A stretch of DNA of 64,000 nt, from the sequence record NC_019505.1. One strand, given 5' to 3'. This document shows, piece by piece, positions 5,195-6,215 of this stretch. The position numbers and the translations under genes are program-made. The first letter of the stretch is position 1; each line of letters begins with the position of its first letter. The DNA is from Escherichia phage wV7. The notes under the pieces were generated by a model. That model did not search any database and was not told the DNA's origin. It worked only from the letters and a program-made list of their open reading frames with translations.

Positions 5195-5270
5195 TGGTCG
5201 AGGCAGTAGGGATCGAACCTACGACCTAGGACTTAGAAGGTCCTTGCTCTTCCTTCTGAGCTATGCCCCG
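5195..5270 (-). tRNA. tRNA-Arg (anticodon UCU)
   Basis: Hand-folded cloverleaf: acceptor CGGGGCA/TGCCTCG, anticodon loop CUUCUAA, T-loop TTCGATC, CCA encoded. Confidence 0.85.
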
Positions 5271-5274
5271 TAAT

Positions 5275-5350
5275 TGGGGTGACCGATGGGAGTCGAACCC
5301 ATGACTACGAGAATCACAATCTCGAGTTCTACCAACTGAACTACGGTCAC
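5275..5350 (-). tRNA. tRNA-His (anticodon GUG)
   Basis: Cloverleaf: acceptor GTGACCG/CGGTCAC, discriminator C, anticodon loop TTGTGAT, T-loop TTCGACT, CCA encoded; no G-1 encoded. Confidence 0.75.
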
Positions 5351-5464
5351 ATTAATACCTACTCCAACAATCAAGATGTCTTCACACGAAATTAAGAGAA
5401 GAGTGATCAGTTCAACCCCTATAATCGCGTCAAGTAGATATTAATGTGACAGTTGTCACAAATT

Positions 5465-5539
5465 TGGCGGACGTGATAGGATTCGAACCTATAACCAATC
5501 GCTTAACAGGCGATCGCTCTGCCATTGAGCTACACATCC
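5465..5539 (-). tRNA. tRNA-Asn (anticodon GUU)
   Basis: Cloverleaf: acceptor GGATGTG/CACGTCC, D-stem GCTC/GAGC, anticodon stem ATCGC/GCGAT with loop CTGTTAA, T-loop TTCGAAT, CCA encoded. Confidence 0.8.
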
Positions 5540-5543
5540 AAAT

Positions 5544-5630
5544 TGGTGGGGAGTGGTGGAGTCGAACCACCCGAGTCGCAATGACAATGAATTTACAGTC
5601 CACACCGCTACCTCTACGGGATAACTCCCC
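5544..5630 (-). tRNA. tRNA-Tyr (anticodon GUA), class II long variable arm
   Basis: 87 nt; acceptor GGGGAGT/ACTCCCC; anticodon loop CUGUAAA as in bacterial tRNA-Tyr; variable-arm hairpin; D-arm could not be resolved cleanly by hand. Confidence 0.6.
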
Positions 5631-5642
5631 TAATTCATAATT

Positions 5643-5717
5643 TGGTGGCCCTGGGTGGAATTGAACCACCATCTGGCGATTATGAGTCGCTTGCTTGAAC
5701 CTTCCAGCTACAGGGCC
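5643..5717 (-). tRNA. tRNA with CAU anticodon (Met, or Ile if lysidine-modified)
   Basis: Cloverleaf: acceptor GGCCCTG/CAGGGCC, anticodon loop CTCATAA, T-loop TTCAATT, CCA encoded; occupies the position of the T4 tRNA-Ile gene. Confidence 0.75.
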
Positions 5718-5718
5718 T

Positions 5719-5794
5719 TGGTGCTGATTGACGGAATCGAACCGCCGACCTTCTCATTACAAGTGAGTTGCTCTACCTACTGAGCTAAATCAGC
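5719..5794 (-). tRNA. tRNA-Thr (anticodon UGU)
   Basis: Cloverleaf: acceptor GCTGATT/AATCAGC, anticodon loop CTTGTAA, T-loop TTCGATT, CCA encoded. Confidence 0.8.
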
Positions 5795-5799
5795 AAAAC

Positions 5800-5889
5800 T
5801 GGCGGAGGTGATAGGATTCGAACCTATGAATCGCCGGAGCGACTGCCGGTTTTCAAGACCGGTGCATTCAACCACTCTGCCACACCTCC
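5800..5889 (-). tRNA. tRNA-Ser (anticodon UGA), class II
   Basis: 90 nt; acceptor GGAGGTG/CACCTCC, anticodon stem CCGGT/ACCGG with loop CTTGAAA, long variable arm, T-loop TTCGAAT. Confidence 0.8.
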
Positions 5890-5891
5890 AG

Positions 5892-5965
5892 TCTCCATAC
5901 AAGGATTTGAACCTTGGACCTCCTGATCCCAAATCAGGCGCTCTACCAAACTGAGCTACACGGAG
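5892..5965 (-). tRNA. tRNA-Pro (anticodon UGG), 3' CCA not encoded
   Basis: Acceptor CTCCGTG/TATGGAG, anticodon stem CCTGA/TCAGG with loop TTTGGGA, T-loop TTCAAAT; 3' end abuts tRNA-Ser 5' end with CU instead of CCA. Confidence 0.8.
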
Positions 5966-5975
5966 TAAATTAAAT

Positions 5976-6049
5976 TGGAGCGGATAATGAGAATCGAACT
6001 CACATCATCAGATTGGAAGTCTGAGGTAATACCATTATACGATATCCGC
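5976..6049 (-). tRNA. tRNA-Gly (anticodon UCC)
   Basis: Acceptor GCGGATA/TATCCGC, anticodon stem TCAGA/TCTGA with loop CTTCCAA, T-loop TTCGATT, CCA encoded. Confidence 0.8.
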
Positions 6050-6054
6050 AAATT

Positions 6055-6141
6055 TGGTGCGAGAAGTGGGACTCGAACCCACAAGGAAATCATTCCGCAG
6101 CATTTTAAGTGCTGTGCCTTTACCAATTTGACCATTCTCGC
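6055..6141 (-). tRNA. tRNA-Leu (anticodon UAA), class II
   Basis: 87 nt; acceptor GCGAGAA/TTCTCGC, anticodon stem CAGCA/TGCTG with loop CTTAAAA, long variable arm, T-loop TTCGAGT. Confidence 0.8.
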
Positions 6142-6142
6142 G

Positions 6143-6215
6143 CTGGGAATAAAGGACTCGAACCTTTGCATCTAGCAGTCAAAGTGCTATGCCTTACCAA
6201 CTTGGCTAATTCCCA
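6143..6215 (-). tRNA. tRNA-Gln (anticodon UUG), 3' CCA not encoded
   Basis: Acceptor TGGGAAT/ATTCCCA, anticodon stem TAGCA/TGCTA with loop CTTTGAC, T-loop TTCGAGT; one nucleotide separates it from tRNA-Leu (dimeric precursor arrangement). Confidence 0.8.

What the first reader, a model, noticed from the sequence alone, without database searches (positions are those of the whole stretch)
5195..6215. Expanded 11-gene tRNA cluster (adds His, Asn, Tyr to the T4-type set)
Hand folding gives 11 back-to-back minus-strand tRNAs: Gln(UUG), Leu(UAA), Gly(UCC), Pro(UGG), Ser(UGA), Thr(UGU), a CAU tRNA, then Tyr(GUA), Asn(GUU), His(GUG) and Arg(UCU). T4 encodes 8 (Gln, Leu, Gly, Pro, Ser, Thr, Ile, Arg) and has two small stable RNAs in the gap before Arg; here that interval is occupied by three extra canonical tRNAs. 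Pro and Gln lack an encoded CCA and sit 1-2 nt from neighbours, consistent with dimeric precursors. The His tRNA has no encoded G-1 and the Tyr D-arm is irregular.
Basis: partly seen in the sequence, partly recalled or inferred. Interest (0 to 1): 0.5.

Follow-up and report, generated by a model that had tools for sequence, protein, structure and literature searches.

The report
Known T-even phage tRNA gene cluster
The 11 tRNA genes are real, but they are the already-annotated tRNA operon of a T2/T6-type coliphage; the only unannotated item is a conserved folded RNA in the 114-base gap before the histidine tRNA gene.

Summary
Gln and Pro lack a full CCA, His has no encoded G-1, and the Tyr D-stem has a C-C mismatch.

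It is not new. The window is 100% identical to E. coli O157 typing phage 7 (Tequatrovirus), where all 11 genes are annotated. Hundreds of phage records share the arrangement.

The comparison with T4 is partly wrong. The T4 Ile-Arg gap holds the homing endonuclease gene segB. rnaD and rnaC lie downstream of Arg, and both are retained here at 4567-4829.

The CAU-Tyr-Asn-Arg-ORF block is the segB-less T2-type cassette. Its Tyr gene equals the T6 tRNA-Tyr that counters Septu, and its Asn gene equals the T2 gene (the 2008 study mapped SegB's preferred site to T2L tRNA-Asn).

Tyr, Asn and the T4-type set read the codons most enriched in this phage. His codons are not enriched.

The cluster is not fully back-to-back. 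The 114-nt Asn-His spacer is a conserved, covarying three-way-junction RNA. Its 19-bp basal helix covers the first five bases of His. It accompanies tRNA-His in every T4-like (Straboviridae) locus examined and resembles the stable RNAIII of phage T5.

The parts
6142..6215 (-). tRNA-Gln(UUG). Only C74 is encoded and it abuts Leu directly (Gln-Leu dimer).
   Evidence: 74/74 identical to T6, 73/74 to T4.
6055..6141 (-). tRNA-Leu(UAA), CCA encoded.
   Evidence: 87/87 identical to T4, T2 and T6.
5976..6049 (-). tRNA-Gly(UCC), CCA encoded.
   Evidence: 74/74 identical to T4.
5891..5965 (-). tRNA-Pro(UGG). Only C74 is encoded, then 1 nt before Ser (Pro-Ser dimer).
5800..5889 (-). tRNA-Ser(UGA). CCA is encoded here, unlike the T4 gene.
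5719..5794 (-). tRNA-Thr(UGU), 1 nt before the CAU tRNA.
   Evidence: 73/76 identical to T4. This gene is absent from T2.
5643..5717 (-). CAU tRNA, annotated Met but probably Ile2 (lysidine) type. It is the T2 allele, not the T4 Ile gene.
   Evidence: 75/75 identical to T2, 47/75 to T4; the best E. coli matches are genes annotated tRNA-Ile (81.6%). C4-G69 and C5-G68 are read from the sequence.
5544..5630 (-). tRNA-Tyr(GUA), long variable arm, D-stem with a C-C mismatch.
   Evidence: 87/87 identical to T6 tRNA-Tyr, which is the anti-Septu tRNA of PMC13096335.
5465..5539 (-). tRNA-Asn(GUU). It carries the published SegB preference motif.
   Evidence: 75/75 identical to T2. Motif at 5480-5488. 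SegB's preferred site is in T2L tRNA-Asn (PMC2330249).
5351..5464 (-). Structured His-leader RNA. A mini-hairpin (5445-5460) is followed by a three-way junction. The basal helix 5432-5450 / 5346-5364 runs into His +1..+5.
   Evidence: The architecture is that of T5 RNAIII. There is no Rfam hit. No feature is annotated under the match in any of the listed Tequatrovirus records.
5275..5350 (-). tRNA-His(GUG), C73, U at -1, no encoded G-1.
   Evidence: 97.4% identical to the genes of Klebsiella and Citrobacter T4-like phages.
5195..5270 (-). tRNA-Arg(UCU), T2 allele.
   Evidence: 74/76 identical to T2, 48/76 to T4.
4826..5176 (-). 116-aa ORF of unknown function inside the RNA operon. A GAGG Shine-Dalgarno sequence precedes the ATG, and the stop codon overlaps the start of rnaD.
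   Evidence: phrog_3355, function unknown; 100/116 identical to the T2 ORF that follows Arg.
4712..4829 (-). Homologue of T4 rnaD (annotated as species 2 stable RNA).
   Evidence: The same feature is annotated in phage Aplg8.
4567..4705 (-). Homologue of T4 rnaC (annotated as species 1 stable RNA), with a canonical T-arm.
   Evidence: z -4.55; tRNA-Sec model only 16.6 bits.
4493..4516 (-). Intrinsic terminator that closes the RNA operon.
   Evidence: 10-bp stem with 7 G-C pairs, followed by a T run.

Best explanation
This is the tRNA and stable-RNA operon of a segB-less, T2/T6-type Tequatrovirus.

Layout. One transcription unit on the minus strand carries Gln-Leu-Gly-Pro-Ser-Thr-CAU-Tyr-Asn, a structured leader RNA, His-Arg, a 116-aa ORF, rnaD, rnaC and a terminator.

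Processing (inferred from T4 knowledge). The polycistronic precursor is cut by host RNase P at tRNA 5' ends. RNase E, RNase III and exonucleases handle spacers and 3' ends. The host CCA-adding enzyme completes Gln and Pro.

Function, two parts. (a) The tRNAs read codons that this A+T-rich phage uses 2-4 times more than E. coli: GGA, AUA, AGA, UAU, AAU, UUA, UCA, ACA. (b) They refill pools that host tRNA-cleaving defences deplete. This is published for the identical T6 tRNA-Tyr against Septu, and for T4 tRNA-Thr(UGU) against P2 OLD.

Relation to T4. The CAU-Tyr-Asn-Arg-ORF block is the T2-type allele. T4 carries Ile-segB-Arg instead.

The His module. Leader plus His (5275-5464) is a separate 190-nt module shared with other Tevenvirinae genera. 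The leader is most likely released by the RNase P cut at His +1 as a stable, RNAIII-like small RNA. Its basal helix transiently sequesters the 5' acceptor strand of His and may serve as a processing site.
For: Shown by tools:
- 11 tRNAs.
- 100% identity to KP869105.1, with all 11 annotated there.
- Synteny and breakpoints against T4.
- Allele identities to T2 and T6.
- rnaD and rnaC retained; terminator; no SegB homologue in the 64 kb.
- Codon enrichment: GGA 4.1x, ATA 3.7x, AGA 3.4x, TAT 2.9x, AAT 2.7x, TTA 2.7x, TCA 2.7x, ACA 2.4x, each read by a phage tRNA.
- CAU tRNA closest to E. coli genes annotated tRNA-Ile.

Leader:
- z -4.4 and -5.2 against shuffles.
- 95.1% of cells paired, against 39-47% for slid controls. 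Five pairs have double changes and there are many G-U pairs, across 15 distinct sequences.
- P3 covaries.
- The covariance model gives one hit per His-bearing T4-like locus, always abutting His. Sense scores are 40-118 bits (76-118 for the long three-way-junction forms); antisense scores are 16-32 bits.
- T5 annotates the stable RNAIII directly abutting its tRNA-His, with the same fold.

From papers:
- T2L cassette and the SegB site in Asn (PMC2330249).
- T6 tRNA-Tyr against Septu (PMC13096335).
- T4 Thr(UGU) against OLD (bioRxiv 10.64898/2026.07.10.737580).
- RNase III involvement in T4 tRNA maturation (PMC4810235).
Against: - His codons are not enriched (CAT 0.83x, CAC 0.32x; His 1.3% against 2.2% of residues). 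Codon supply therefore does not explain the His gene.
- His lacks G-1, the major E. coli HisRS identity element, so its charging efficiency is uncertain.
- Tyr scores below Rfam's tRNA threshold. A related gene is flagged tRNA-Pseudo-GTA in one RefSeq record.
- No expression data exist for this phage. The stability, the ends and any function of the leader RNA are inferred by analogy with T5 only.
- The covariance-model match to T5 RNAIII is weak (14.8 bits, E about 0.03). Homology, as opposed to convergence, is not shown.
- The E. coli codon reference is a 49-kb sample, not the whole genome.
Confidence: 0.85

Rival explanations
1. One reading: the three extra tRNAs occupy the slot where T4 keeps rnaC and rnaD, so those stable RNAs may be degenerate descendants of Tyr, Asn and His.
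For: rnaC has a perfect T-arm (CCGGG-UUCGAAU-CCCGG) and a cloverleaf-like fold.
Against: The T4 Ile-Arg gap holds segB. rnaD and rnaC lie after Arg. Both are present here at 97.7% identity alongside the three tRNAs. ARAGORN does not call them. The best tRNA-clan score is 16.6 bits, E 3.3. blastn finds no similarity between them and Tyr, Asn or His.
Confidence: 0.02
2. Some of the extra genes are decaying pseudogenes carried along by recombination: Tyr (mismatched D-stem) and His (no G-1).
For: Tyr is below the Rfam tRNA threshold. A homologue is flagged tRNA-Pseudo-GTA. His lacks G-1 and its codons are not enriched. T6 tRNA-Tyr is described as relatively unstable (PMC13096335).
Against: The identical T6 tRNA-Tyr is detected by northern blot and rescues infection under Septu (PMC13096335). 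tRNA-His is 97.4% identical across Tequatrovirus and the listed Klebsiella, Citrobacter and Raoultella phages, with an intact cloverleaf at 67 bits. U-1 and C73 are present in all 15 sequences. The GenBank note for the G-1-less T5 tRNA-His says it becomes an effective amber suppressor when its anticodon is changed.
Confidence: 0.08
3. The 114-nt Asn-His interval is a promoter, a decayed tRNA or neutral spacer, not a functional RNA.
For: It is unannotated in the listed Tequatrovirus records. Short-leader variants of 31-33 nt exist that keep only the hairpin. So the inner arms are dispensable for whatever the helix does.
Against: No minus-strand sigma-70-like site lies within it. ARAGORN and Rfam give no tRNA call there. 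The helix covaries and uses G-U pairs, and it scores strand-specifically. It keeps its position abutting His while the upstream neighbour changes between Asn, Gln and Ser. The T5 counterpart is annotated as a stable RNA.
Confidence: 0.12
4. The cluster is chiefly an anti-defence tRNA reserve, and codon matching is a side effect of base composition.
For: Published rescue by T6 tRNA-Tyr against Septu, and by T4 tRNA-Thr against OLD. OLD also depletes Gly(UCC) and Pro(UGG), which are both encoded here. His is not explained by codon use.
Against: The eight most enriched codons are exactly those served by the cluster. The anticodon loops of Tyr, Asn and His match my recollection of the E. coli loops (memory, not tool-checked). 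Septu cleaves the phage tRNA-Tyr as well (PMC13096335). So the effect there is dosage, not resistance.
Confidence: 0.3

Closest known systems
Phage T2/T2L tRNA gene region (segB-less allele; Brok-Volchanskaya et al. 2008, PMC2330249; T2 record AP018813)
   Same: Same flanks. The CAU (75/75) and Asn (75/75) genes are identical. Tyr is 86/87 and Arg 74/76 identical. The 116-aa ORF after Arg is shared (100/116). There is no segB.
   Different: T2 has an ORF where this window has Thr. T2 goes straight from Asn to Arg with a 4-nt spacer, so it lacks the 190-nt leader-plus-His module.
Phage T4 tRNA cluster (8 tRNAs, segB, rnaD, rnaC; NC_000866)
   Same: Gln-Leu-Gly-Pro-Ser-Thr are 82/90 to 87/87 identical. 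rnaD and rnaC are 97.7% identical. Same flanking genes. Same dimer junctions, and CCA is missing in Gln and Pro.
   Different: T4 has Ile-segB-Arg in place of CAU-Tyr-Asn-leader-His-Arg-ORF. The T4 Ser and Ile genes lack CCA, whereas the Ser and CAU genes here encode it.
Phage T6 tRNA-rich region and its anti-Septu tRNA-Tyr (Chihara et al. 2026, PMC13096335)
   Same: The tRNA-Tyr is identical (87/87).
   Different: T6 has segB next to Tyr and amplifies the pair. This window has no segB homologue.
Phage T5 RNAIII-tRNA-His pair (NC_005859; RNAIII is annotated 'stable RNA with unknown functions')
   Same: A structured RNA of about 100 nt abuts a tRNA-His gene that lacks G-1 and keeps C73. A 19-20-bp basal helix covers U-1 and His +1..+5. 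A 4-bp hairpin sits just before the 3' strand.
   Different: A different phage family. Sequence similarity is weak (covariance model 14.8 bits, E about 0.03). The inner arms differ. Homology is not established.
Gln-leader-His-Ser arrangement of other T4-like (Straboviridae) genera: Karamvirus, Jiaodavirus, Gelderlandvirus, Mosugukvirus, Kanagawavirus, Gualtarvirus
   Same: The same leader family (82-91% identity in the first three genera) and the same tRNA-His (up to 97.4%). The helix register is the same.
   Different: The neighbours differ: Gln or Ser upstream and Ser or Glu downstream, against Asn and Arg here. Kanagawavirus keeps only a 31-33-nt hairpin.

Membership tests
T-even (Tequatrovirus) tRNA/stable-RNA operon | Location between the e.8/rnaC side and the trna.2-4/ipI/57B/gene 1 side of a T4-type genome | tested here: met
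   blastn against T4 gives collinear flanks at 92-98% identity. The window is 100% identical to a Tequatrovirus record.
T-even (Tequatrovirus) tRNA/stable-RNA operon | Presence of the rnaD and rnaC stable RNA genes and a terminator downstream of tRNA-Arg | tested here: met
   97.7% identity over 344 nt. Terminator at 4493-4516. An ORF is inserted between Arg and rnaD.
segB-less (T2-type) allele, a SegB homing target | No segB, and a tRNA-Asn gene carrying the preferred SegB site | tested here: met
   tblastn with SegB finds nothing at E<=10. Asn is 75/75 identical to T2. The motif RAWTSGAAC lies in Asn at 5480-5488. Actual cleavage cannot be tested here.
Canonical tRNA (Rfam RF00005) | Score at or above the gathering threshold of 29 bits | tested here: met
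   10 of 11 genes score 59-74 bits.
Canonical tRNA (Rfam RF00005): Tyr gene | Score at or above the gathering threshold | tested here: not met
   There is no RF00005 call. The best clan hit is tRNA-Sec at 30.9 bits against 47. ARAGORN does call it. The identical T6 RNA is functional (PMC13096335).
Bacterial tRNA-His identity set | Genome-encoded G-1 opposite C73 | tested here: not met
   U is at -1 and C73 is present. E. coli hisR has G-1. U-1 is present in all 15 leader sequences.
Bacterial tRNA-His identity set | GUG anticodon and C73 discriminator | tested here: met
tRNA-Ile2 (lysidine, AUA-reading) | CAU anticodon with C4-G69 and C5-G68, and closest similarity to ileX/ileY rather than to Met tRNAs | tested here: met
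   The best E. coli matches are genes annotated tRNA-Ile, at 81.6% over the full length. The acceptor pairs are read from the sequence. Lysidine modification cannot be tested. That TilS uses these pairs is from my own knowledge (Ikeuchi et al. 2005).
T5 RNAIII-type stable RNA | Structured RNA of about 100 nt whose 3' end is the RNase P site of a tRNA-His lacking G-1 | tested here: inconclusive
   The architecture and position match. Sequence homology is weak. The stability and ends of the RNA in this phage cannot be tested here.
RNase III processing stem | Continuous dsRNA helix of about two turns that is cleaved by RNase III | not testable with these tools
   A 19-bp uninterrupted helix is predicted. 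Short variants have only 12-13 bp plus the extension. Cleavage is not testable.

The most novel reading that the evidence does not exclude
The Asn-His spacer (5351-5464) encodes an unannotated member of a class of phage small RNAs that crosses virus families (T5 RNAIII type). This class is coupled to tRNA-His genes that lack G-1. It was seen in Straboviridae (at least eight genera), in Demerecviridae (T5) and as a simpler hairpin in Vequintavirinae (KB57). Its basal helix sequesters U-1 and nucleotides +1 to +5 of the tRNA. [quoted passage not shown] Alternatively, the released RNA has a job of its own, for example in counter-defence. The His gene is the one tRNA in the cluster that codon usage does not explain.
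Probability: 0.3. Interest if true: 0.55.

Novelty: already known. Interest (0 to 1): 0.22.

Why it matters
The cluster adds nothing new as a gene set. It is annotated in GenBank, reported in several Tequatrovirus genome papers, and its T2-type core was described in 2008.

Its value is as context. It is a natural segB-less allele carrying the anti-Septu tRNA-Tyr and the SegB target in tRNA-Asn. It also shows that T4, the textbook reference, is only one of at least two common alleles. In the phage collection, 183 records hold segB and about 196 hold the Tequatrovirus-type His module.

The one point worth a bench experiment is the conserved structured RNA that always precedes a tRNA-His without G-1. 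Two things would be of interest to tRNA-processing and phage-defence researchers: if it proves to be a stable RNA like T5 RNAIII, or if it governs tRNA-His maturation in a host whose HisRS relies on G-1.

Tried and rejected
1. A hammerhead or other ribozyme in the leader (it contains CUGAUCA and GAAG). No Rfam ribozyme hit at E<=10. Dropped.
2. A promoter in the leader. No minus-strand sigma-70-like site in 5351-5464.
3. A degenerate tRNA in the leader. ARAGORN and Rfam are silent. The 'tRNA-Gln' label under the Klebsiella hits is only a 2-nt overlap with the upstream gene.
4. Widening the leader family.
   - The 15-mer scan of IMG/VR gave 52 loci, of which 4 were real.
   - The degenerate stem-plus-His pattern gave 16 distinct His-linked sequences.
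5. An analogous helix in front of tRNA-Gln, the documented RNase III region of T4. The predicted fold is not better than shuffles (z -1.55), so I make no claim there.
6. His-specificity of abutting helices. They are universal for His (16/16 loci). They also occur before tRNA-Asp (4/4) and occasionally before Ile, Asn and Ser in other genera. The device is therefore not exclusive to His.
7. Pfam and PHROGs on the two ORFs without a T4 counterpart. Both match only families of unknown function.
8. A literature search for T5 RNAIII found nothing in the held library.
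Full report

Yes. ARAGORN reports 11 tRNA genes on the minus strand between 5195 and 6215. In transcription order they are Gln(UUG), Leu(UAA), Gly(UCC), Pro(UGG), Ser(UGA), Thr(UGU), a CAU tRNA, Tyr(GUA), Asn(GUU), His(GUG) and Arg(UCU).

- Rfam's tRNA model calls ten of them at 59-74 bits, E 1e-10 to 1e-14.
- The Tyr gene is the exception. Its best clan hit is tRNA-Sec at 30.9 bits, below threshold.
- ARAGORN's drawing shows why: a D-stem with a C12-C23 mismatch and two G-U pairs in the anticodon stem.
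- Nine genes encode CCA. Gln and Pro encode only C74 and are followed after 0 and 1 nt by Leu and Ser. Thr and the CAU tRNA are 1 nt apart.
- His has U at -1 and C73. E. coli hisR aligned to it has the extra G-1.

One detail was missed. The cluster is not uniformly back-to-back: 114 nt (5351-5464) separate Asn from His.

**2. What is the sequence?**

The region is 100% identical to E. coli O157 typing phage 7 (KP869105.1, Tequatrovirus). In total 1059 phage records match, and 324 cover at least 80% of the 1.3-kb query.

All eleven genes are annotated in that record. In phage Aplg8 the rnaC and rnaD genes are annotated as well. Eleven papers in the held library mention Tequatroviruses together with '11 tRNA'. 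The gene set is therefore already known.

**3. The comparison with T4**

T4's own annotation gives this order: Gln-Leu-Gly-Pro-Ser-Thr-Ile, then segB (a GIY-YIG homing endonuclease), then Arg, rnaD and rnaC. So the T4 gap before Arg holds segB, not the stable RNAs.

- blastn of the T4 locus against the window and the alignment show rnaD and rnaC retained here at 97.7% identity. I place rnaD at about 4712-4829 and rnaC at about 4567-4705. A strong terminator follows at 4493-4516.
- Homology to T4 on the upstream side ends inside the CAU gene, at window 5698.
- The CAU and Arg genes are only 47/75 and 48/76 identical to T4 Ile and Arg. They are 75/75 and 74/76 identical to the T2 genes.
- Asn is identical to T2, and Tyr is identical to T6 (87/87).
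- The 116-aa ORF after Arg (4826-5176, phrog_3355, unknown function) is 100/116 identical to the T2 ORF in the same place.
- No SegB homologue exists anywhere in the 64 kb.

This is the segB-less allele described for T2L in 2008. That paper reports tRNA-Met, Tyr, Asn and Arg plus two ORFs in place of the T4 segB region. It also reports SegB's preferred cut in tRNA-Asn, and replacement of about 1250 bp in T4 x T2L crosses (PMC2330249).

The published SegB motif RAWTSGAAC occurs in Asn, Ser, Thr, Gly and rnaC here. In the phage collection, segB is found in 183 records. The Tequatrovirus-type His module is found in about 196. So the T4 arrangement is not the majority form.

**4. What the tRNAs are for**

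I compared 56 long ORFs of the window with 56 from a 49-kb E. coli K-12 segment. The most enriched codons are:

| Codon | Enrichment | Phage tRNA that reads it |
|---|---|---|
| GGA | 4.1x | Gly(UCC) |
| ATA | 3.7x | CAU tRNA, if Ile2-type |
| AGA | 3.4x | Arg(UCU) |
| TAT | 2.9x | Tyr(GUA) |
| AAT | 2.7x | Asn(GUU) |
| TTA | 2.7x | Leu(UAA) |
| TCA | 2.7x | Ser(UGA) |
| ACA | 2.4x | Thr(UGU) |

So Tyr and Asn fit the classical codon-supply logic. The ATA assignment assumes that the CAU tRNA is an Ile2-type tRNA. Its best E. coli matches are genes annotated tRNA-Ile (81.6%), and it has C4-G69 and C5-G68. 'tRNA-Met' in the records is probably a mislabel.

His does not fit. CAT is 0.83x and CAC 0.32x, and His makes up 1.3% of residues against 2.2% in the host sample.

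A second function is documented in the literature. Septu PtuAB cleaves tRNA-Tyr. Extra T6 tRNA-Tyr, identical to the gene here, restores infection. T4, which lacks the gene, cannot escape, and T2 is resistant (PMC13096335). P2 OLD depletes Thr(UGU), Gly(UCC) and Pro(UGG) among others, and T4 tRNA-Thr gives strong counter-defence (bioRxiv 10.64898/2026.07.10.737580).

**5. The Asn-His interval**

The 114 nt fold far better than shuffles (z -4.36). With the first bases of His included, they form an uninterrupted 19-bp helix. It pairs 5432-5450 with 5346-5364 and covers U-1 and His +1..+5 (MFE -38.3, z -5.19). The helix closes a three-way junction.

*Distribution and linkage to His*
- blastn finds the element in 354 phage records. 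Identity is at least 99% in 173, about 87% in Karamvirus and about 82% in Klebsiella Jiaodavirus phages. No feature is annotated under the match in the listed Tequatrovirus records.
- In those other genera it lies between Gln and His, so it travels with His and not with Asn.
- T2 goes directly from Asn to Arg. Leader plus His is thus a 190-nt module.
- Across 15 distinct sequences from at least seven genera plus IMG/VR contigs, the leader is 31-213 nt long. Most other tRNAs in these arrays are about 4 nt apart.

*Evidence that it is an RNA structure*
- On the arm alignment A4, 95.1% of cells pair, against 39-47% when the partner is slid.
- Five pairs show changes on both sides (14 cells), and G-U pairs are frequent. 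This argues for an RNA-level structure on this strand.
- RNAalifold also recovers a covarying 4-bp hairpin (P3) just before the 3' strand.
- A covariance model finds one copy per His-bearing T4-like locus, always abutting His, and none in the T4, T2 or T6 loci. Sense scores are 40-118 bits and antisense scores 16-32.
- Rfam has no family for it.

**6. The closest precedent for the leader**

The closest precedent is in phage T5. The T5 GenBank record annotates 'RNAIII, stable RNA with unknown functions' (106 nt) directly abutting tRNA-His.

- That tRNA-His also has U-1 and C73.
- RNAIII with its flanks folds into a 20-bp basal helix that again covers U-1 and His +1..+5. A 4-bp hairpin again sits before the 3' strand (z -6.5).
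- The model matches it in register, but weakly (14.8 bits, E about 0.03).
- Hairpins that abut His and extend into +1..+5 also occur in an Aeromonas T4-like phage and in Klebsiella phage KB57 of the Vequintavirinae. None occurs in a mycobacteriophage.
- Such helices are universal for His (16/16 loci). They are also seen before Asp (4/4) and sporadically before other tRNAs.

My reading is inference by analogy. The interval yields an RNAIII-like stable RNA, freed by the RNase P cut at His +1. The helix may also act as a processing site. RNase III is known to take part in T4 tRNA maturation (PMC4810235, and from memory McClain 1979 and Pragai & Apirion 1981). How a tRNA-His without G-1 is charged by E. 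coli HisRS remains open.

**7. Verdict**

It is wrong about what T4 has in the gap and about what was replaced.

The cluster is already known and ordinary for a Tequatrovirus. The residual interest lies in the unannotated, conserved leader RNA coupled to a tRNA-His without G-1.

Noticed in passing
window 4826-4830: The UAA stop codon of the 116-aa ORF lies within the first five nucleotides of the rnaD homologue (AUUAAGAAACC, against T4 AUGAGAAACC). On any one transcript, cutting out rnaD at its 5' end would therefore remove the ORF's stop codon.
   Followed up: partly
window 3960-4483 (ORF 3965-4438, minus strand): A cassette of about 525 nt that is absent from T4 carries a 157-aa ORF (phrog_2280, unknown function). 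It is bracketed by two copies of the same terminator hairpin (about 3925-3959 and 4484-4518, with a 25-nt exact repeat). It looks like a modular insertion next to rnaC.
   Followed up: partly
window 5445-5460: In the Tequatrovirus version of the leader, UGUGAC (5455-5460) duplicates the sequence U-1 to C5 of tRNA-His. It can pair with GUCACA (5445-5450), which is the same strand that otherwise pairs with the real His 5' end. The two pairings are mutually exclusive, so this is either a possible switch or a recombination footprint.
   Followed up: no
L006 856-1108, L007 891-1133, L061 674-899, L107 (tRNA-Asp leaders): In other T4-like genera, tRNA-Asp(GUC) is preceded by a leader of 220-250 nt. 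Its 3' strand is predicted to be paired right up to the tRNA 5' end (9-12 of 12 nt). This may be a second family of structured leaders. Some records annotate short hypothetical ORFs there.
   Followed up: no
window 7241-7498 (minus strand): T4's ipI gene has no counterpart here. Instead there is an 85-aa ORF starting MKTYKEFATE. From memory, this resembles the capsid-targeting leader of T4 internal proteins. That suggests a different internal-protein allele at this variable locus.
   Followed up: no
L007 1730-2344 (Enterobacter phage ZX13): A gene annotated as a homing endonuclease sits immediately downstream of tRNA-His, between His and Ser. This is another case of endonuclease genes lodging inside T4-like tRNA arrays.
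   Followed up: no
window 5643-5717; KP869105.1 and many related records: The CAU tRNA is annotated tRNA-Met in the public records. It is closest to E. coli tRNA-Ile (CAU, lysidine type) genes and has the C4-G69/C5-G68 pairs. It is probably an AUA-reading Ile tRNA that has been mislabelled.
   Followed up: partly
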